Part shown: positions 1,434-7,366 of the stretch, one piece after another
Position numbering within the stretch: the first letter of the stretch is position 1
Layout: each line of letters starts with the position of its first letter
Virus record (IMG/VR): IMGVR_UViG_2563366805_000010
Coordinates: 1 to 41,798 of that record
Origin: a virus
Lineage: Duplodnaviria > Heunggongvirae > Uroviricota > Caudoviricetes
Length of the DNA: 41,798 nt
Reading direction: 5' to 3' (one strand)
Program-made: the position numbers and the translations under genes
The notes under the pieces: model-generated
Told to the model about the DNA's origin: nothing
What the model saw: the letters and a program-made list of their open reading frames with translations, nothing else
Database searches by the model: none

Positions 1434-1675
1434 CCAACCTGCCCGGGCAGGGAGCGGAGACGGCGCATGCCGGTCATCGCTGTGGCCACGTAGCTCGCCT
1501 TTCGGTTCACCACCTCCACCCAGACTTTCACGCCTTCAACCTTCACCGTATAAGTCTCTTTCATCTTGCTTCGCCCATAGTCGCCATATGTTTGCAAGTG
1601 AGCTGCCAGCGCAACATCGCAAGCGCGGCGACCAATAGGTGATTGCTTACTGCGATTAATCAGCTTCATCATCAC
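1430..1675 (-). CDS. Hypothetical protein (81 aa)
   Basis: ORF overlaps upstream and downstream genes by 4 nt, consistent with translational coupling in the leftward operon; no recognisable motif. Confidence 0.45.
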   Translation of the reverse strand: MMMKLINRSKQSPIGRRACDVALAAHLQTYGDYGRSKMKETYTVKVEGVKVWVEVVNRKASYVATAMTGMRRLRSLPGQVG

Positions 1676-2544
1676 TGCACTCCCAAAGTGGCTACGACAT
1701 CACTCGCTGTTTCGCGGGTACTGCCTTTGCTGGATATAGCCCGGCGAGCACTGACGCGGTGCAGCGTGAAGCCGTGCTGTTCGTAAAGTTCAATTACGCG
1801 AGGAGCGGTAGAATTGCTGATCACCACTTTTGCCCCCCGCTGGTGGGCTGCCACACAGCTTTCCGTAAGTTCTACCTGGCTATCCCATGAGAACCCACCA
1901 GCCGCGTAGTTAGTGAAACCAGCGGTGCCGGGCAGCGGTTCATAAGGCGGATCGCAGTAAACGACGTCACCATCACCTGCCAGCGCGATCGTGCGCCTGA
2001 AGCCTGCATTCATGAATACGCATGCGTGAGCCTTCCGCTTAAATGCCCTGATCTCTTCTTCCGGGAAATATGGCGCTTTATATTTCCCAAAGCCGACGTT
2101 AAAAAAACCGTCCAGGTTATAACGGATCAGCCCGTTGAAGCAGTGCCGGTTGAGGTAAAGGAGCGCTGCTGCGCGCTCAACCGCATCCAGCCGCTGCGCG
2201 TTGAATGCTTCACGAATTACCGTGTAGTTTTCGGCATCATTCAGATGCCTGAATGCCTTCATTGCCTCATAGATCACCGAGTCGGGGACCACCGCCAGCA
2301 TCTGATACAGGTTAATCAGGTCAGCGTTGACGTCAGCCAGAAGAAAGCGTTCGTGCTTGTCTGAGTTAAGGAACACCGAGCCGCCACCCACAAAAGGCTC
2401 AATAAGGCGTTTACCTGCGGGGATCAAACGATCCAGTTCCGGCAGCAGCGAATATTTGCCTCCAGCCCATTTAAGGAACGGGCGCTGCCAAGTGCGCGGC
2501 TCTGTTTCCGTCTCTTGGCGCGATATCTCCGCACAATAACTCAT
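1672..2544 (-). CDS. dam: DNA adenine methyltransferase, Dam family (GATC-type N6-adenine MTase)
   Basis: 290 aa; motif I FLKWAGGK and catalytic motif IV DPPY (VVYCDPPYEPL); no adjacent restriction endonuclease, so an orphan MTase. Confidence 0.9.
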   Translation of the reverse strand: MSYCAEISRQETETEPRTWQRPFLKWAGGKYSLLPELDRLIPAGKRLIEPFVGGGSVFLNSDKHERFLLADVNADLINLYQMLAVVPDSVIYEAMKAFRHLNDAENYTVIREAFNAQRLDAVERAAALLYLNRHCFNGLIRYNLDGFFNVGFGKYKAPYFPEEEIRAFKRKAHACVFMNAGFRRTIALAGDGDVVYCDPPYEPLPGTAGFTNYAAGGFSWDSQVELTESCVAAHQRGAKVVISNSTAPRVIELYEQHGFTLHRVSARRAISSKGSTRETASDVVATLGVQ

Positions 2545-2699
2545 GCAGCCACCTGCTTTTCGTTAAGTTCTTCTGCCAGTCGTTGCGCCTTCAGTGGGTT
2601 GGTAACGACATCATCCCACGGTAGCAACCACCCGTTTTTCTCTTTGAGCCAGGGAAGGCGCACCGCGCCAACCCTGATTTCGTCCTGTGTGTGCGTCAT
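2541..2699 (-). CDS. Small hypothetical protein (52 aa)
   Basis: Not in the ORF track (under 60 aa); ATG overlaps the upstream stop as ATGA and its stop overlaps the dam start as ATGA. Confidence 0.3.
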   Translation of the reverse strand: MTHTQDEIRVGAVRLPWLKEKNGWLLPWDDVVTNPLKAQRLAEELNEKQVAA

Positions 2700-3427
2700 A
2701 ACGCATAGATAGAGTGAGAAGGGAATGGAAGACCGATCGGCGCAAACGGGATATCGTCGTCAAAGTCTACCGGTGGCTGACCGCTGTTCTGCTGCAAGCG
2801 AGACTGTGGTGCGCCTCCAGTCTGATTTGCATAAGGGTTACCGCCATGTTGGGCATTGCGCGGACCAGAGAACTGCGTGCCGCCGTGGATACGTTCGTCC
2901 TTATCCTTCATCGACAGTTCAAGCGCGGCGATCGCTTCTGCCGGGGCATTTTCAGCGTGCTCGGCGTAGGTTTTACGCGTTCCCGGCTGGAAAACGTGGC
3001 GCACTTCGAACTTGTAGCCGTCACCGCCGTCGTTTTTGGTGTACAGCACTTTCTGGAGGAACAGGCCCACCTTTTTGCCAACCAGTGCCGGGCAGTGCCA
3101 TTCGATGCCGTTTTGACCCTGTACCTGTTGCGGTTGCGCCTGTTTGACCTGGGCGACCCACATCAGCGCTGACACCAGCCCCATGCCGAAAGTCTGCTGG
3201 CCGTCTTTGCCGAGGAAGTTAATGCGCAAGTAATTTGCTTTTGCCCCGTTCGAGTCCAGGCTGAGTTCGAGCGCCTGGGATTGGCTGCCATCTTTCCCGA
3301 AGGTGTACACCGCAGAAACGATTTCGCCCTCGTAAGCGCCGGTTTCGCTGATCCCGCCTGTTGCGCCAGCTTTCTTCGCCATCTCAGCCGTTTCGTTGTT
3401 CCACATAAAAGTCATTGGTTGGTTCAT
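2696..3427 (-). CDS. SSB-like ssDNA-binding protein (Sak4-associated)
   Basis: 243 aa immediately downstream of Sak4; contains the SSB acidic tail motif DFDDDIPF followed by 15 more residues; Gly/Gln-rich linker before it; OB-like segment IEWHCPALVGKKVGLF. Confidence 0.55.
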   Translation of the reverse strand: MNQPMTFMWNNETAEMAKKAGATGGISETGAYEGEIVSAVYTFGKDGSQSQALELSLDSNGAKANYLRINFLGKDGQQTFGMGLVSALMWVAQVKQAQPQQVQGQNGIEWHCPALVGKKVGLFLQKVLYTKNDGGDGYKFEVRHVFQPGTRKTYAEHAENAPAEAIAALELSMKDKDERIHGGTQFSGPRNAQHGGNPYANQTGGAPQSRLQQNSGQPPVDFDDDIPFAPIGLPFPSHSIYAL

Positions 3428-3443
3428 CGTTAAATCCTCAAAG

Positions 3444-4115
3444 TTACAATTCGGTCATAAATTCGGTGATAGCCACGTCTACGGCGTGGAGGTCGTTGTC
3501 CATTTCCGTCTGGTCCGGGAACAGGTCGGGCGGCGCTTTGGCGGTGTCGTTGTCATCGCCTTTGATGAGAAAAACGTGTTTACCGTCCTTCTTGATGGCG
3601 CGCAGCACGATGGAGAAATAGCCCTCTGGAGTCAGCTTTTCGTTGAGCATCTTCCCGGTGGTCTTCATGCGGATCTTTCCCTCGGTCTCTTCGGTGTGAG
3701 CCAGGAAATAAACGCGGAAGTCGTCCGGCAGCTCGGTGGCCGCCATGATGATTCGCCAGATGTGATCTGCCATTTCGGTGAATTTGGCATAGCCGGTCTG
3801 GTACGCGCGGTTCATGTTCTCGTGCTGCATGACCACCTGGAAATCGTCGATGATCAGGACGCGGCGCGTTTTCGACTGCACCATGCGATAGATGGTGTCC
3901 AGCACCGTTTCCCAGTTATCCGAGCGCAGAACGTTACCGCGCTGTTTGCTTCCGTCTGGCAGCAGCTTGCCGTGAAGTTTCCAGCCCGCAGACTTGAACG
4001 GCAGCATTTTGGGAATGCACTGGAGCAGCATCACATCGTCCGGATTGAAGTTGCGCAGGCTGTAGGACTTGCCCGCGCCAGAGTCACCTAGGATCAGCAC
4101 TGGAGTACCCATCAT
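3444..4115 (-). CDS. Sak4-like RecA-fold recombination ATPase
   Basis: 223 aa; Walker A GDSGAGKS near N-terminus, Walker B VLIIDD; position next to exonuclease and SSB-like genes. Confidence 0.8.
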   Translation of the reverse strand: MMGTPVLILGDSGAGKSYSLRNFNPDDVMLLQCIPKMLPFKSAGWKLHGKLLPDGSKQRGNVLRSDNWETVLDTIYRMVQSKTRRVLIIDDFQVVMQHENMNRAYQTGYAKFTEMADHIWRIIMAATELPDDFRVYFLAHTEETEGKIRMKTTGKMLNEKLTPEGYFSIVLRAIKKDGKHVFLIKGDDNDTAKAPPDLFPDQTEMDNDLHAVDVAITEFMTEL

Positions 4116-4783
4116 TTACCCCCGTTCAGCCAGTGTTCAGCCGTAAACAGCACGTCTTCGTCTTCGCTGTTGGCAACGAGCCAGCGCAGGTAACCCGGTT
4201 CTGTTTTTGCCAGCTCTGCGAACGAGACGCCTTTATGCTTACCGAAGCGGAGCGCATGCAGCAGGGAAGGGTTATTGGAGATGGCGCGCATTTCGCCCAT
4301 CGTCCATTTCGCCAGGCGGCCCATATAGAGCAGCAATTCGGCGGTGACGTAGCAGTCATACAGCGCTCGGTGAGCGTAAAGCCCTTCAGGTACTTCCGGT
4401 TTCAGTCCGAGGCTGTAACGCAGGTACTGGTTGCTGTGGCTCTTGTGATCCGGCAGGAGCGAACGCGCCAGCTTAGCGGTACAGATCCACGGGGCGTTCA
4501 TTGCAGGAAGTTTGGCTTTATCGAACTTCGCGTTGTGGGCGACGTAGGCATCTGCCCCCAGATAGCGGCCAATTACTTCACTGAGCAGCGGCGCGCCTTC
4601 CACCATGTCTTCGGTGATATGGTGAATAGCCATGGCCTCAAAACCGATCGCCACGCCTGGCTTAACGAGGTCGCTCATTGGATTGCAGATCACCCCGTCG
4701 ACGATATCGACGCTGGCAATTTCCACCACGGTTTCCGGACCGCCTTCCAGCCCAGTCGTTTCGGTATCAATGACACGCAGCAT
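4112..4783 (-). CDS. DEDDh 3'-5' exonuclease (DnaQ/ExoX-like)
   Basis: Exo I motif VIDTETTG, Exo II HNAKFD, Exo III HRALYDCYVTAEL; start placed at internal ATG 4783 preceded by AGGGGA SD (track ORF extends to 4852). Confidence 0.8.
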   Translation of the reverse strand: MLRVIDTETTGLEGGPETVVEIASVDIVDGVICNPMSDLVKPGVAIGFEAMAIHHITEDMVEGAPLLSEVIGRYLGADAYVAHNAKFDKAKLPAMNAPWICTAKLARSLLPDHKSHSNQYLRYSLGLKPEVPEGLYAHRALYDCYVTAELLLYMGRLAKWTMGEMRAISNNPSLLHALRFGKHKGVSFAELAKTEPGYLRWLVANSEDEDVLFTAEHWLNGGK

Positions 4784-4934
4784 TGTTAATCCCCTGTGTT
4801 CTGTAATCACAAACTGCATCGAAGTGCGCGAGCTGGTGGGCAATAGCCTCAAGGTCAGCTGGCGATAAGTTGTACATCAGGCACAGAAGCGCGATAAGGT
4901 TCATCGCCTGCTGCTGTTTGGTCGTAGCCTGCAT
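4767..4934 (-). CDS. Small hypothetical protein (55 aa)
   Basis: Below track size cutoff; ATG preceded by AGAGGA; 3' end overlaps the exonuclease start. Confidence 0.3.
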   Translation of the reverse strand: MQATTKQQQAMNLIALLCLMYNLSPADLEAIAHQLAHFDAVCDYRTQGINNAACH

Positions 4935-5013
4935 ATCCATTCCTCTGAAAAAGGTTGTAAGAATCCCGGCACCATAATGGCTGCCTGTATTTGATTAATT
5001 GAAAATTTGCTTT

Positions 5014-5604
5014 TTAATTATCGAAGAAAAAAACTATTCGAATATTTTCAGGGATAATATTTTTCTCTAACCACCATAATTCCAGAGCTCTGCTCTCCAG
5101 CGATTCATGAATATTTTTTAAAGCATCTACCGTATCTTCCCATTCCCGGAAAACAAAGCCTGGCATGCTTGTCCACCCACACCATGAATCGGGTTTAATA
5201 CCCTTATCAAGATCTGCCGCTTGTTTTTCTGAAATCATTCCTTTGAATGGCATTGGAGTAAGGTTGGTTCTGAACTCCCGAATTTCGGCAAGACTGACGT
5301 AACTGTGAGAATGTCCATCACACCCCCATTCTTCTGATACCTGCTTGGTGTAATCACAAGCATCGTCAGGTATACCGCGTGGTTCGGATATCTTAGGCGT
5401 TTCGTCAGCGTATGCTCTTACTCCGCAGAGTTGGGAGAATGCTGCATAATTACGAGAACTCTCTAAATCAATACGTTCAAATTCCCGTTCGCCATCGTCA
5501 TTTCCATACCATAGGTTTTTACGGAAATGATCATAATTAACCCATTTTTCTTCACCGTTAATTGAGCGTTTAACCTCAACCATCATATGAATATCGCAGC
5601 CCAT
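5014..5604 (-). CDS. Hypothetical Cys/His-rich protein (196 aa) in AT-rich cassette
   Basis: ATG preceded by AAGGA SD; segments GCDIH, CDY, GCDGHSHSY, WCGW suggest metal binding; visibly lower GC than flanking genes; no family recognised. Confidence 0.6.
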   Translation of the reverse strand: MGCDIHMMVEVKRSINGEEKWVNYDHFRKNLWYGNDDGEREFERIDLESSRNYAAFSQLCGVRAYADETPKISEPRGIPDDACDYTKQVSEEWGCDGHSHSYVSLAEIREFRTNLTPMPFKGMISEKQAADLDKGIKPDSWCGWTSMPGFVFREWEDTVDALKNIHESLESRALELWWLEKNIIPENIRIVFFFDN

Positions 5605-5926: not shown

Positions 5927-6124
5927 TCAAAATTTCGCGTCATAACCCGCTGGCGTTTCGTCAGCGTGAATGATGCCTTCGACTGGATAGCAGTTAGTGA
6001 CGCCCATTTGCTCACTCGCTGCCGCTTCACATTGCTGCTGATTGTCGATAATACCGACAACAGCGTCCTGGTAATCACCGTTCGTCATGGTGATGGTCAG
6101 CACTAATGCGTACAGGGCTCCCAT
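5927..6124 (-). CDS. Small hypothetical protein (65 aa)
   Basis: Start chosen at internal ATG that overlaps the upstream stop as ATGA; the longer 108-aa track ORF would overlap the upstream gene out of frame. Confidence 0.4.
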   Translation of the reverse strand: MGALYALVLTITMTNGDYQDAVVGIIDNQQQCEAAASEQMGVTNCYPVEGIIHADETPAGYDAKF

Positions 6125-6324
6125 CAGTGAGTCCCCGCAGGCACAAGATTTGGTTCGATGGTGCGTGAGGCATAAGGGCGTCGAATGTTGCGCAGGTTGC
6201 CCTGCGGTTCGTGCCAGTAGGTGCCGTCGCGGTAGTCGTAGGAAACCTGCCATGCTGCGCCGGTGCGGCTGTTGCGCATTACGACAGCACGACCGTTATT
6301 TGGTACTGGGTTAGCAGCTTTCAT
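6124..6324 (-). CDS. Small hypothetical protein (66 aa)
   Basis: ATG preceded by GGAGG SD; early position in the PL transcript. Confidence 0.5.
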   Translation of the reverse strand: MKAANPVPNNGRAVVMRNSRTGAAWQVSYDYRDGTYWHEPQGNLRNIRRPYASRTIEPNLVPAGTH

Positions 6325-6410
6325 GAAATAGCCTCCACGAATTCTGCGAAGCTGAGCGCTACTTCACCTTCAGCCAGACTTTCGAAATATTCCTCGTATG
6401 CCTTTTCCAT
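6321..6410 (-). CDS. Very small acidic ORF (29-31 aa)
   Basis: MEKAYEEYFESLAEGEVALSFAEFVEAIS; stop overlaps next ATG as ATGA; first ORF after the predicted PL; weak evidence. Confidence 0.2.
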   Translation of the reverse strand: MEKAYEEYFESLAEGEVALSFAEFVEAIS

Positions 6411-6490
6411 TCTCATCCCCTTGCCGTCTTCCCGGCTGCCAGAACTTTTACCCGGGCATTCGCGTTTGAATGCGTTGTTTGGATGAGCTA

Positions 6491-6554
6491 ACAATAGCTA
6501 AAGCGATTATTTGAGTCAATCGCTTAAACGATAATTTATTTAGCTAAAGCGATA
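6491..6554 (-). promoter_or_regulatory. Leftward early promoter PL with operator cluster OL
   Basis: On minus strand TTGACT-17 nt-TATTGT; overlapped and flanked by three sites with ATCGC half-sites (atagctaaagcgatt, atcgcttaaacgat, ttagctaaagcgat) matching the OR operators. Confidence 0.5.
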
Positions 6555-6652
6555 ATTTTATGATTTATAAGATTATTTATTTGATTGGGAAATGTGCGAT
6601 GAAATGATATTAGCGAAGGAATTGGGGGAATTTTAATCAGGTCAGGAACAAT

Positions 6653-6672
6653 AAAAAACCCGGCAAGCCGGG
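6653..6672 (-). terminator. Rho-independent terminator downstream of cI
   Basis: GC hairpin CCCGG-CAAG-CCGGG followed on minus strand by a T-run, directly after the cI stop; A-run on the other side could make it bidirectional. Confidence 0.6.
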
Positions 6673-6673
6673 T

Positions 6674-7366
6674 TTATGCGAAGCGCTTGTACTCTATTGA
6701 TTGTCTTAGTAGCACTTTAGCCATTACGTAGAACTGATCTTCGTCTTCTGACTCAACATACCATTTCTCGTAGATAGGGTTGTCTGAGATGACAGCAAGC
6801 CGATCTCTTTGCATCTGAAGTCTTTTGACGTGCAGAGTTTTTCCGAACACAAATACGTAAACGCCATCACCATCAAAATGAGTCACGCCAGTATCAACAA
6901 AAATTTGATCTCCTGGTGAGATGGTTCCATCCATGCTGTCGCCGTTAACAGTGATAACTTTTACATTATCTGCGGGGCGGTTTCCGAAAAGTGCGCGAGC
7001 CTGTTCAGTTGTGTATTCGATTGCTCTTATGGTTTCGATAAAATCACTGGTAACTAGCGAGCCAGGACCGGCGCTGGCCTTAACGTCAAGCACATCCACG
7101 CGGTAAACCTCATTCATAACTGGTTTAATTTGGCATAGCGTGTTTGCTTCGCGAATGCCAGATTCCAACATCTCACCTTGCCCCGTTGAAAGCCATTCAG
7201 GACGCACACCCAGAACAGATGCGATCTCTACTGTTTTTCGTGAGCCGTTCGCACCTTTAAGTAACTTATTTACGCTGGACTGAGCCATGCCTACATCTTT
7301 CGCCAGCCTAGCCTGCGTGTATCCAGCGACGTCCATTGCGTGCCCTAAGCGTTCTGAGAATCCCAT
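6674..7366 (-). CDS. cI: CI-type phage repressor (HTH + S24 LexA-like peptidase domain)
   Basis: 230 aa; N-terminal HTH (TQARLAKDVGMAQSSVNKL); C-terminal autocleavage domain with GDSM serine and KRL lysine; AAGAGG SD; divergent from cro. Confidence 0.9.
   Translation of the reverse strand: MGFSERLGHAMDVAGYTQARLAKDVGMAQSSVNKLLKGANGSRKTVEIASVLGVRPEWLSTGQGEMLESGIREANTLCQIKPVMNEVYRVDVLDVKASAGPGSLVTSDFIETIRAIEYTTEQARALFGNRPADNVKVITVNGDSMDGTISPGDQIFVDTGVTHFDGDGVYVFVFGKTLHVKRLQMQRDRLAVISDNPIYEKWYVESEDEDQFYVMAKVLLRQSIEYKRFA

What the first reader, a model, noticed from the sequence alone, without database searches (positions are those of the whole stretch)
2541..4783. Sak4 / SSB-like / DnaQ-exonuclease recombination module with an internal SSB tail motif
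The module uses a RecA-fold Sak4 annealase and a DEDDh 3'-5' exonuclease rather than a Red-type 5'-3' exonuclease. The SSB-like protein carries DFDDDIPF, the partner-binding tail of bacterial SSB, but 15 residues follow it, so the motif is not at the free C-terminus where it normally functions.
Basis: partly seen in the sequence, partly recalled or inferred. Interest (0 to 1): 0.45.

Follow-up and report, generated by a model that had tools for sequence, protein, structure and literature searches.

The report
Phage SSB with a capped tail
This temperate phage's recombination gene cluster is of a known kind, but its single-strand DNA-binding protein hides the partner-docking tip of bacterial SSB under a conserved 15-residue cap; the same cap is common on SSBs of phages and plasmids and I found no description of it.

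Summary
A translationally coupled minus-strand string encodes an ExoX-like DEDDh 3'-5' exonuclease (4783-4112), a Sak4 annealase 47% identical to the characterised HK620 protein (4115-3444), an HK620-HkaK-type SSB (3427-2696) and a DUF1317 protein.

The SSB has DFDDDIPF at residues 221-228, followed by APIGLPFPSHSIYAL. This is not an error. The same tail occurs in a 510-member protein cluster, in phage Omnitron and in 29 fetched viral loci. About 90% of family members stop at IPF, and two checked have no hidden extension after the stop.

The same cap follows DDDIPF on unrelated scaffolds: P22-like OB-fold SSBs, Vequintavirinae SSB-like proteins, and phage-plasmid-sized and IncT plasmid SSBs. 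About a quarter of sampled viral DFDDDIPF tails run past F. Other host clades carry their own caps.

The cap almost never occurs without the tip and keeps its length. It shows fewer amino-acid than silent changes and switches on and off among close relatives. It does not co-vary with Sak4.

The module is a known kind (papers of 2018 and 2025); the capped tip seems undescribed. Its function is unknown. I favour a host-specific second docking element that changes which partners the tip engages.

The parts
4112..4783 (-). ExoX-like DEDDh 3'-5' exonuclease (223 aa) with an ExoX-like C-terminal domain; first gene of the recombination string
   Evidence: Pfam RNase_T and ExoX-like_C. E. coli ExoX, PDB 4FZX, at E 4e-48. 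D6, E8, D88, H138 and D143 present. Its stop overlaps the Sak4 start as ATGA.
3444..4115 (-). Sak4, a RecA-core-only ssDNA annealing protein (223 aa)
   Evidence: PHROG 2872 at 8e-84. 47% identity to the characterised HK620 HkaL, E 2e-70. Walker A GDSGAGKS at residues 10-17 and Walker B VLIIDD at 86-91.
2696..3427 (-). SSB of the HK620 HkaK / 'SSB-2' type (243 aa), whole gene including the stop
   Evidence: PHROG 743 at 4.8e-45. hhalign against HK620 HkaK: probability 99.7%, E 1e-25, 36% identity over residues 6-185.
2888..3370 (-). Predicted OB-like beta-rich DNA-binding core of the SSB (residues about 20-180)
   Evidence: AlphaFold2 block-mean pLDDT is 78-98 over this stretch and above 88 from residue 31. 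The listed Foldseek PDB matches are all SSB, PriB or PrgE OB-fold proteins; the best is PrgE 8s4t at E 6.3e-4.
2768..2887 (-). Disordered linker rich in Q, G, N and P (residues 181-220)
   Evidence: pLDDT is below 50 for residues 185-208 and 211-219. Its length and sequence vary between homologs.
2744..2767 (-). SSB-Ct tip motif DFDDDIPF (residues 221-228), internal here
   Evidence: Read directly from the sequence. D223, D224, I226, P227 and F228 are invariant in 56 aligned homologs.
2699..2743 (-). 15-residue cap APIGLPFPSHSIYAL (residues 229-243), the 'class 1' extension
   Evidence: A 45-nt insertion relative to uncapped relatives. The identical peptide occurs in P0001, Omnitron and 29 fetched viral loci. 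pN/pS is about 0.41 over positions 3-15.
2541..2699 (-). DUF1317 protein (52 aa), last gene of the recombination string; its start overlaps the SSB stop as ATGA
   Evidence: Pfam DUF1317 at 3.9e-17. Homologs lie next to the genes annotated as (recombination) exonuclease in phages 21, 434 and Stx phages.

Best explanation
What it is (shown): a lambdoid early-left recombination module of four translationally coupled genes. They are an ExoX-like 3'-5' DEDDh exonuclease, the ATP-dependent annealase Sak4, its cognate HkaK-type SSB, and a DUF1317 protein.

How the module works (inferred from the HK620 experiments in PMC5928155 and from the 24 Chi sites in the window):
- Host RecBCD acting at Chi, or replication, exposes ssDNA.
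- The phage SSB coats it.
- Sak4 is recruited to SSB-coated ssDNA through the SSB's C-terminal tail and anneals complementary strands.
- The ExoX-like nuclease trims 3' ends or flaps.

The special feature (shown): the SSB tail is two-part. It has the host-type tip DFDDDIPF and, fused to it, a 15-residue cap that removes the free carboxylate of the terminal Phe. The cap is a real, mobile, selected peptide module:
- its consensus is A-P-[IV]-[GT]-L-[PQM]-[FY]-[PG]-R-[HN]-x-I-[HY]-x-[IL];
- it is found only attached to an acidic-[IV]PF tip;
- it sits on at least three unrelated ssDNA-binding scaffolds of phages and plasmids of Enterobacterales and related gammaproteobacteria;
- elements in other host clades carry different caps.

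How the cap works (inferred, not shown): it acts as a second docking element, specific to the host clade, that changes the tip's partner selectivity. It should weaken binding to host pockets that use the free C-terminal carboxylate, as is thought for ExoI, RecQ, chi, RecO and DnaG. It may add or favour another partner, most likely a host one. It is not tuned to Sak4.
For: Identity of the genes.

The module does not depend on the cap. The same ExoX-Sak4-SSB trio occurs with uncapped SSBs in L124 and L126. The Sak4 of L124 is 99.1% identical to the window's and its ExoX 94.2%.

The cap is real. It is the tail of the 510-member cluster P0001, of Omnitron and of 29 fetched viral loci. No cryptic extension follows the stop in two uncapped relatives.

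The cap is modular.
- It sits on epsilon34 gp35, Cronobacter JK004 and mEp554 OB-fold SSBs, on Klebsiella Seu621 (PHROG 4477) and Bas54 proteins, and on a 93-kb non-mobilizable Salmonella plasmid.
- Variant forms sit on a Vibrio plasmid and on IncT plasmid Rts1.

The cap is frequent. 31 of the first 120 viral DFDDDIPF loci continue past F.

The cap is tied to the tip.
- 15 of 15 protein-context GLPFPRHA hits follow DDDIPF.
- When only the final F of the tip was fixed by the search, about 82 of 85 short-tail hits kept an acidic-[IV]PF tip, with varied codons.

Selection.
- pN/pS is 0.33 for cap positions 3-7, 0.46 for positions 8-15 and 0.65 for the linker.
- Length is held at 14-16 residues and truncated forms are rare.

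The cap is labile. Capped and uncapped states are interleaved in the core-domain tree.

Cap classes follow host clades: Enterobacterales, Vibrio and Alteromonadales versus Pseudomonas versus Rhizobiales versus Psychrobacter.

Literature context.
- The last six residues of HK620 SSB are needed for Sak4 stimulation (PMC5928155).
- Phage SSBs are sensed by several defence systems, and the tip-bearing Bas52_0087 is linked to ExoI and DRT10.
Against: - No binding or functional data exist for any capped tail, and I could not model complexes.
- AlphaFold gives the cap no structure (pLDDT below 50), so nothing shows that it docks anywhere.
- Constraint on the cap is moderate, far weaker than on the tip.
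- The scans were ascertained by sequence patterns, which inflates apparent conservation of the fixed positions.
- Host-clade specificity could simply reflect the host ranges of element lineages.
- If HK620-like Sak4 needs a free terminal tip, a capped SSB would be expected to work worse with Sak4. Yet the same Sak4 is found with both forms, which is unexplained.
- The role of a 3'-5' exonuclease in an annealing pathway is itself unclear; PMC12315714 notes that such nucleases usually inhibit recombination.
Confidence: 0.4

Rival explanations
1. Cleavable cap or degron. The extension is removed by a host protease to unmask the canonical tip, making the protein a pro-SSB. Alternatively its non-polar C-terminus makes the element's SSB short-lived.
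For: - 29 of the 31 extended tails in the unbiased sample start with Ala after Phe, most with Ala-Pro. That could be a conserved junction.
- Nearly all caps end in non-polar residues: HAI, YAL, LAGA, NII, WLI. From general knowledge, non-polar C-termini destabilise cytoplasmic proteins in E. coli, whereas the acidic DDDIPF end would not.
- The tip stays under strong selection although it is buried.
Against: - Conservation extends over the whole 15 residues, with a fixed length and specific positions (G4, L5, aromatic 7, I12). That is more than a cleavage site or a generic hydrophobic end needs.
- The Rhizobiales caps end in Arg or Arg-Gly (APEWR).
- No protease is known for such a site.
Confidence: 0.15
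2. Neutral or nearly neutral scar of mosaic recombination or of homing-endonuclease insertion at the conserved ssb 3' end. It is carried along because it does no harm.
For: - Endonuclease VII/HNH-like genes start at or overlap the ssb stop in at least 7 of 448 fetched loci.
- In Bas54, compared with Bas52, a cassette of recoded tip, cap and endonuclease replaces an uncapped end.
- In that subclass the distal cap overlaps the endonuclease N-terminus in another frame.
- The capped state is patchy among close relatives.
- Genes downstream of capped SSBs are very diverse.
Against: - Most capped loci have no endonuclease nearby: 2 of 91 immediate downstream ORFs.
- The peptide is kept through many silent changes, with pN/pS about 0.4.
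- Its length is kept at 14-16 residues, with very few truncations despite near-saturated silent divergence.
- The window's alternative frames show no endonuclease remnant.
- The capped form is the most abundant cluster of the family.
Confidence: 0.15
3. The cap is the private docking site for the module's own proteins (Sak4 or the ExoX-like nuclease).
For: HK620 Sak4 depends on its SSB's C-terminal residues. Several capped SSBs lie beside DnaQ-type exonucleases: this window, epsilon34 and the Vibrio plasmid pTHAF64_c.
Against: - The same Sak4 (99.1% identical) and ExoX (94.2%) pair with an uncapped SSB in L124.
- Most modules of this family are uncapped.
- The same cap occurs with Erf plus Abc2 modules and in virulent Vequintavirinae and plasmids with no Sak4 or ExoX homolog in the fetched flanks.
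Confidence: 0.06
4. Sequencing or assembly error, or a recent mutation that removed the stop after DDDIPF.
For: Most relatives end exactly at IPF.
Against: - The tail is identical in independent sequences: Omnitron (96.8% DNA identity), a 510-member cluster and 29 fetched viral loci.
- Two uncapped relatives have an unrelated 12-nt or longer spacer after the stop, not a hidden cap.
- The cap is shared with unrelated SSB genes.
Confidence: 0.01

Closest known systems
HK620 Sak4 (HkaL) with its cognate SSB (HkaK, 'SSB-2', DUF669-like); Hutinet et al. 2018, PMC5928155
   Same: Adjacent sak4 and ssb genes in a lambdoid early-left operon. Sak4 is 47% identical. The SSB core is homologous at 99.7% hhalign probability. 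Both SSBs have a disordered acidic-hydrophobic C-terminal tail.
   Different: HK620 SSB ends in a free NDYPPF and its module has Abc2 and no nuclease. Here the tip is the host-type DFDDDIPF, it is capped by 15 residues, and the module has an ExoX-like nuclease and no anti-RecBCD gene that I could see.
E. coli SSB C-terminal tip (SSB-Ct, MDFDDDIPF-COOH)
   Same: The same eight residues, DFDDDIPF, placed after a disordered linker.
   Different: In bacterial SSB the Phe is the last residue. [quoted passage not shown] Here the Phe is in a peptide bond, followed by APIGLPFPSHSIYAL.
Lambdoid Rec modules with DnaQ-type nucleases (for example epsilon34); PMC12315714, 2025
   Same: A DnaQ-superfamily 3'-5' nuclease packed with an annealing protein and an SSB. 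The genome is Chi-rich (24 sites) and has no visible anti-RecBCD gene. epsilon34's SSB carries the same class of cap.
   Different: epsilon34 uses Erf, an OB-fold SSB-1 and Abc2, and its nuclease belongs to a different PHROG (255). The window's nuclease is a close ExoX homolog. The paper does not discuss SSB tails.
E. coli exonuclease X (ExoX, PDB 4FZX)
   Same: Alignment over the whole catalytic domain (E 4e-48), the DEDDh residues, and the ExoX-like C-terminal domain.
   Different: It is phage-encoded and translationally coupled to Sak4 and the SSB. Its role in the phage is untested.
Bas52_0087, the Vequintavirus SSB-like trigger of the DRT10 defence system (bioRxiv 10.64898/2026.04.29.721553)
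   Same: A phage ssDNA-binding-type protein with an FDDDIPF tip. The authors propose that it interferes with host ExoI (SbcB).
   Different: Bas52_0087 ends at IPF. Its near-identical ortholog in Bas54 has the cap APVGLQYGKSRIHAL plus an adjacent endonuclease gene. The scaffold is unrelated to the window's SSB.

Membership tests
Sak4 (RecA-core-only ssDNA annealing proteins) | Sequence homology to a characterised Sak4 | tested here: met
   47% identity to HK620 HkaL, E 2e-70; PHROG 2872 at 8e-84.
Sak4 (RecA-core-only ssDNA annealing proteins) | Walker A and B ATPase motifs, and no RecA C-terminal domain | tested here: met
   GDSGAGKS at residues 10-17 and VLIIDD at 86-91. The protein is only 223 aa. 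Pfam matches AAA_24 and AAA_22 only.
Sak4 (RecA-core-only ssDNA annealing proteins) | ATP-dependent single-strand annealing stimulated by the cognate SSB | not testable with these tools
   Biochemical property, shown only for HK620 (PMC5928155).
HkaK / SSB-2 (DUF669-like) phage SSB | Homology to the experimentally validated HK620 SSB | tested here: met
   hhalign probability 99.7%, E 1e-25, 173 aligned columns; PHROG 743 at 4.8e-45.
HkaK / SSB-2 (DUF669-like) phage SSB | Match to the Pfam DUF669 model | tested here: not met
   No Pfam family at E up to 0.01. Two homologs are nevertheless named DUF669 by UniRef.
HkaK / SSB-2 (DUF669-like) phage SSB | OB-like fold | tested here: met
   Confident beta-rich core. 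The listed Foldseek hits are all SSB, PriB or PrgE proteins, but with modest scores: best E 6.3e-4 and target-normalised TM 0.56.
HkaK / SSB-2 (DUF669-like) phage SSB | Gene adjacent to sak4 | tested here: met
   A 16-nt gap after the sak4 stop; the same order in L124 and L126.
Bacterial-type SSB-Ct tip | Acidic-hydrophobic sequence D-D-D-I-P-F after a disordered linker | tested here: met
   Residues 221-228 are DFDDDIPF. The linker has pLDDT below 50.
Bacterial-type SSB-Ct tip | Phe is the C-terminal residue, with a free alpha-carboxylate | tested here: not met
   15 residues follow. This holds for 12 of the 111 family members examined and for 31 of 120 sampled viral DFDDDIPF tails.
Bacterial-type SSB-Ct tip | Binds host SSB-interacting proteins | not testable with these tools
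   Needs peptide-binding assays.
ExoX / DnaQ-superfamily DEDDh exonuclease | Homology to ExoX and the RNase_T domain | tested here: met
   PDB 4FZX at E 4e-48; Pfam RNase_T at 1e-19 and ExoX-like_C at 1.2e-8.
ExoX / DnaQ-superfamily DEDDh exonuclease | Catalytic D, E, D, H, D residues | tested here: met
   DTET at residue 6, HNAKFD at 83 and HRALYD at 138, aligned with ExoX motifs.
Beta-clamp-binding motif (QL[SD]LF / QLxLx[LF]) | Consensus with a leading Gln, and occurrence across host clades because the clamp cleft is universal | tested here: not met
   P-I-G-L-P-F resembles the hexapeptide form but lacks Gln. Caps of Pseudomonas, Rhizobiales and Psychrobacter elements (APLHHLAGA, APEWR, APHFDGQF) do not fit. 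The motif definition is from my own knowledge; this was considered only as a lead.

The most novel reading that the evidence does not exclude
Capped SSB tips are a widespread adaptation of mobile elements. A short cap specific to the host clade would convert the universal SSB-Ct into an internal two-part motif. The element's SSB would then stop feeding host enzymes that need the free carboxylate (such as ExoI), and would escape or manipulate immune systems that sense phage SSBs or ExoI activity (DRT10-type, Retron-Eco8, Hna and others). It would still serve the element's own recombinase. Endonuclease genes that home to the conserved ssb 3' end would help spread the cap between unrelated ssb genes.
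Probability: 0.2. Interest if true: 0.8.

Novelty: new variant of a known kind. Interest (0 to 1): 0.55.

Why it matters
The SSB C-terminal tip is the hub that recruits more than a dozen genome-maintenance proteins. The standard picture places its last Phe at the free C-terminus.

A large class of phage and plasmid SSBs keeps the tip under strong selection while burying it under a conserved cap that differs between host clades. This means either that the tip has uses that do not need the free end, or that mobile elements deliberately re-route or mute the host SSB interactome.

The question is directly testable with peptides and with natural near-isogenic pairs: Bas52/Bas54, and the window/L124 module. 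It bears on three practical matters:
- the design of recombineering systems (Sak4, Erf or RecT with a cognate SSB);
- how defence systems sense phage SSBs;
- annotation, since capped tails are easily mistaken for errors.

Tried and rejected
- **Sequencing error or lost stop.** Rejected.
- **Hidden extension after the stop of uncapped relatives (readthrough).** None in the two checked.
- **A common neighbouring gene as the cap's partner.** Clustering of all ORFs within 6 kb of 62 capped loci gave no universal family. Erf occurred in 36 and the Sak4/ExoX trio in 7. Immediate downstream genes are very diverse.
- **Cap as a free-standing motif on other proteins.** GLPFPRHA and F-APIGL(QY/PF) scans found it in protein context only after an SSB tip. 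The other hits were chance frames or an unrelated hydrophobic ORF.
- **Co-variation of Sak4 or ExoX with the cap.** None.
- **Homing endonuclease as the general cause.** Present in only a small minority of loci.
- **Cap docking on the SSB core.** AlphaFold leaves it disordered.
- **PDB sequence search for the SSB.** No meaningful hit.
- **Pfam on the SSB and on the two endonucleases.** No hits.
- **Literature string searches** for IPFAPI, IPFAPV, DDIPFA, LHHLAGA, PFPRHAI and similar: no relevant paper.
- **My first pN/pS figure for the tip.** It was circular, because the search pattern fixed DDDIPFAP. I replaced it with scans that fix only the final F.
- **uvrA adjacency test.** 0 of 120 capped genomic loci have uvrA nearby. 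There was no positive control, so this only weakly indicates that the capped genes are not the housekeeping ssb.
- **The DRT10 preprint** has no per-phage numbers in text or supplement for comparing Bas52 with Bas54.
- **Chimeric AlphaFold complexes.** Not attempted: tool input is restricted and no paired alignment was available.


Full report
**Setting**

The window is a lambdoid temperate phage genome. It is about 97% identical over this region to Citrobacter phage Omnitron. An integrase gene sits at the left end, and a minus-strand early-left operon follows.

**The genes**

Four minus-strand ORFs are packed head to tail. An ATGA overlap joins the exonuclease gene to sak4, 16 nt separate sak4 from ssb, and another ATGA overlap joins ssb to the DUF1317 gene. 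A further ATGA overlap leads into a Dam methylase gene (1672-2544).

- **Exonuclease (ORF 4783-4112).** It matches Pfam RNase_T and ExoX-like_C. It aligns from its first residue with E. coli exonuclease X (PDB 4FZX, E 4e-48). It has the DEDDh residues D6, E8, D88, H138 and D143.
- **Sak4 (ORF 4115-3444).** PHROG 2872 at 8e-84. It is 47% identical to the biochemically characterised HK620 HkaL and has Walker A and B motifs.
- **SSB (ORF 3427-2696).** It has no Pfam hit. It belongs to PHROG 743, 'single strand DNA binding protein'.
  - A 56-sequence profile aligns with the experimentally validated HK620 SSB, HkaK, at 99.7% probability.
  - AlphaFold2 gives a confident beta-rich core and a disordered tail from residue 185.
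  - The listed Foldseek PDB matches are all SSB, PriB or PrgE OB-fold proteins, though scores are modest.
- **DUF1317 (ORF 2699-2541)**. Its homologs lie next to the genes annotated as (recombination) exonuclease in phages 21, 434 and Stx phages. It therefore looks like a regular last member of such modules.

**The observation**

Residues 221-228 of the SSB are DFDDDIPF, the last eight residues of E. coli SSB. Fifteen more residues, APIGLPFPSHSIYAL, follow before the stop.

**Is it an error? No.**

- Among 111 full-length family members with a tip, 96 end at IPF, 3 end at IPFN, and 12 carry a homologous 15-16-residue extension. Examples are APIGLPFPRHALYAL, APIGLQYPNHAIYAL and APLGLQYGRNFIYAIS.
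- The window's own tail is that of the largest cluster listed, with 510 member sequences. It is also in Omnitron (97.9% identity over all 243 residues) and in 29 fetched viral loci.
- In two uncapped relatives the stop follows IPF directly. A short unrelated spacer then precedes the DUF1317 gene or its remnant. The cap is therefore a 45-nt insertion/deletion difference, not a point change.

**The cap is a mobile module tied to the tip**

The same peptide follows DDDIPF on several scaffolds:
- canonical OB-fold SSBs of P22-like and lambdoid phages (epsilon34 gp35 ...DDDIPFAPVTLPFPRHAIHAI) and of Cronobacter JK004; mEpX2, HK75, mEp235 and g341c gave matches through the end of the tail query, over features annotated as SSB, and were not translated;
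- a 406-aa Klebsiella Mydovirus protein of PHROG 4477;
- the SSB of a 93-kb non-mobilizable Salmonella plasmid;
- in variant forms, a Vibrio plasmid SSB and, more diverged, the SSB of IncT plasmid Rts1.

Scans of viral contigs gave these results:
- For DFDDDIPF, an arbitrary first 120 loci gave 89 ending at the stop and 31 (26%) continuing. 29 of those 31 start with Ala.
- Searching for the cap rather than the tip showed the linkage. All 15 protein-context GLPFPRHA hits follow DDDIPF.
- With only the terminal F fixed, about 82 of 85 short-tail hits kept an acidic-[IV]PF tip, encoded by many different codons.

So the cap is essentially never seen without the tip, and the tip stays under selection when it is buried.

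**Selection and dynamics**

- Across 78 unique coding sequences, pN/pS is 0.33 for cap positions 3-7, 0.46 for positions 8-15 and 0.65 for the preceding linker. The linker is not strictly alignable, so that value is only a rough comparison.
- G4, L5, an aromatic at position 7, I12 and a hydrophobic last residue are nearly fixed.
- Length is 14-16 residues and truncated forms are rare.
- An earlier pN = 0 for the tip was circular, because the pattern fixed it. I do not use it.
- In a neighbour-joining tree of the SSB core, capped and uncapped proteins are interleaved. Examples are P0004 capped beside P0006 uncapped, and P0034 capped inside an uncapped clade. This implies repeated gain or loss.

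**What the cap is not tuned to**

- Relatives with uncapped SSBs have the same ExoX-Sak4-SSB trio.
- The Sak4 of L124, whose SSB is uncapped, is 99.1% identical to the window's; its ExoX is 94.2% identical.
- Capped SSBs occur beside Erf plus Abc2, beside DnaQ-type nucleases, in virulent Vequintavirinae and on plasmids.
- No neighbouring gene is universal.

**Host-clade pattern**

A scan of one genome per species for DDDIPFAP (120 loci) shows that cap classes follow host clades:
- class 1 and its marine variant (APIGLQYPALLxxM) occur in Enterobacterales, Alteromonadales, Aeromonadales, Chromobacterium and, from the plasmid search, Vibrio;
- APLHHLAGA and APISRLLLNII occur almost only in Pseudomonas and close relatives;
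- APEWR and APEVR occur in Rhizobiales;
- APHFDGQF occurs in Psychrobacter.

None of the 120 loci has uvrA nearby. This is weak evidence, with no positive control, that these are extra copies carried by mobile elements rather than the housekeeping gene.

**Mechanism**

Shown elsewhere:
- HK620 Sak4 anneals ssDNA in an ATP-dependent way and is stimulated by its SSB through the SSB's last six residues (PMC5928155).

Inferred here:
- The SSB coats ssDNA and recruits Sak4.
- The phage has 24 Chi sites against 1.5 expected and no visible Gam or Abc2 in the module. It therefore probably relies on host RecBCD plus Chi for resection, as proposed for Chi-rich lambdoid phages (PMC12315714).
- The ExoX-like enzyme would trim 3' ends or flaps.

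For the cap, three observations argue for a specific binding function rather than mere blocking:
- specific residues are conserved over 15 positions;
- the cap is always joined to the tip;
- cap sequences follow host clades.

The lack of co-variation with Sak4 points to a host partner. I therefore favour a two-part docking motif that changes partner selectivity, at about 0.4. Rivals are a cleavable cap or degron (0.15), a near-neutral recombination or endonuclease scar (0.15), and a private site for Sak4 or ExoX (0.06). A beta-clamp-motif reading (P-I-G-L-P-F versus QLSLPL) was considered, but it lacks the leading Gln and does not extend to the other cap classes.

**Link to recent work**

- Phage SSBs trigger several defence systems (PMC13381803).
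- A 2026 preprint names Bas52_0087 as the DRT10 trigger. It is a Vequintavirus SSB-like protein with an FDDDIPF tip, and the authors propose interplay with ExoI.
- I found that Bas52_0087 ends at IPF.
- The near-identical Bas54 ortholog ends ...DFCDDIPFAPVGLQYGKSRIHAL. It is followed, with overlap, by an endonuclease gene that Bas52 lacks.
- Related endonuclease VII/HNH-like genes (PHROGs 1035 and 2340) start at or overlap the ssb stop in at least 7 of the 448 fetched loci. These include the lambdoid phage mEp554, a Sodalis prophage with the window's type of SSB, and one locus with an uncapped SSB.

Such genes could carry tails between unrelated ssb genes. They are too rare to explain the cap in general.

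**Novelty**

The module is a further member of a described kind. Papers mention the tip in phage SSBs but not residues beyond it. String searches for the junction sequences found nothing relevant. I therefore rate the capped tip as a new variant of a known kind, of moderate to good interest, with its function still to be shown.

Noticed in passing
window 1-41798 (for example 1839, 4832, 8490 ... 37169): There are 24 Chi sites (GCTGGTGG) against 1.5 expected by chance, 17 of them on the + strand. No Gam or Abc2 is visible in the Rec module. This fits the 'Chi-rich lambdoid phages lacking anti-RecBCD' described in PMC12315714.
   Followed up: partly
L361 (Escherichia phage MaxBurger/Bas54) 2549-3191; L362 (RudolfGeigy/Bas52) 5982-7208: This is a near-isogenic natural pair. 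Bas52_0087, the published DRT10 trigger, ends at ...SFDDDIPF. The Bas54 ortholog has a recoded tip (DFCDDIPF), the cap APVGLQYGKSRIHAL, and an inserted endonuclease gene of about 650 bp whose start overlaps the cap in another frame.
   Followed up: partly
L447 2523-3086; L094, L206, L240, L367, L389, L399, L400: Zinc-finger endonuclease VII/HNH-like genes (PHROGs 1035 and 2340) match 9 of the 448 fetched loci. In the 7 where an ssb end was detected, they start at or just after the ssb stop. They occur beside both capped and uncapped tails and on unrelated SSB scaffolds. This suggests a homing-endonuclease family that targets the conserved ssb 3' end.
   Followed up: partly
L226-L345 (genome scan): Other short caps after DDDIPF are specific to host clades: APLHHLAGA and APISRLLLNII (Pseudomonas), APEWR/APEVR (Rhizobiales), APHFDGQF (Psychrobacter), APLLARCEYVI (Paenalcaligenes) and APLGYRQ.. 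(Kistimonas).
   Followed up: partly
window 2541-2699 (-): The DUF1317 gene overlaps the SSB stop. Its homologs sit next to the genes annotated as exonuclease in phages 21, 434 and Stx phages. It is thus a conserved last gene of otherwise different Rec modules, and its function is unknown.
   Followed up: partly
window 1672-2544 (-): A Dam-type N6-adenine methyltransferase gene (Pfam MethyltransfD12, 1.8e-57) is translationally coupled (ATGA) to the end of the Rec string. In relative L124 this position holds DndB-like and MT-A70 genes instead, and only a remnant of the DUF1317 gene.
   Followed up: no
L130 (Vibrio plasmid pTHAF64_c) 452-1599; L001 (epsilon34) 3078-4141: In two other elements with capped SSBs, a 3'-5' exonuclease gene lies directly beside the ssb gene (DnaQ-type in epsilon34; annotated '3'-5' exoribonuclease' in pTHAF64_c). 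The window's family shows the exonuclease with uncapped SSBs as well, so the link is not obligatory.
   Followed up: partly
window 4767-4940 (-) and 5014-5604 (-): Two ORFs of unknown function lie upstream of the exonuclease gene. One encodes a 57-aa protein conserved in all seven window-type loci. The other encodes a 196-aa PHROG 10141 protein.
   Followed up: no
P0014, P0069, P0089: Three family members end in DDDIPFN, a one-residue cap. This is a minimal natural variant that also removes the free Phe carboxylate.
   Followed up: no
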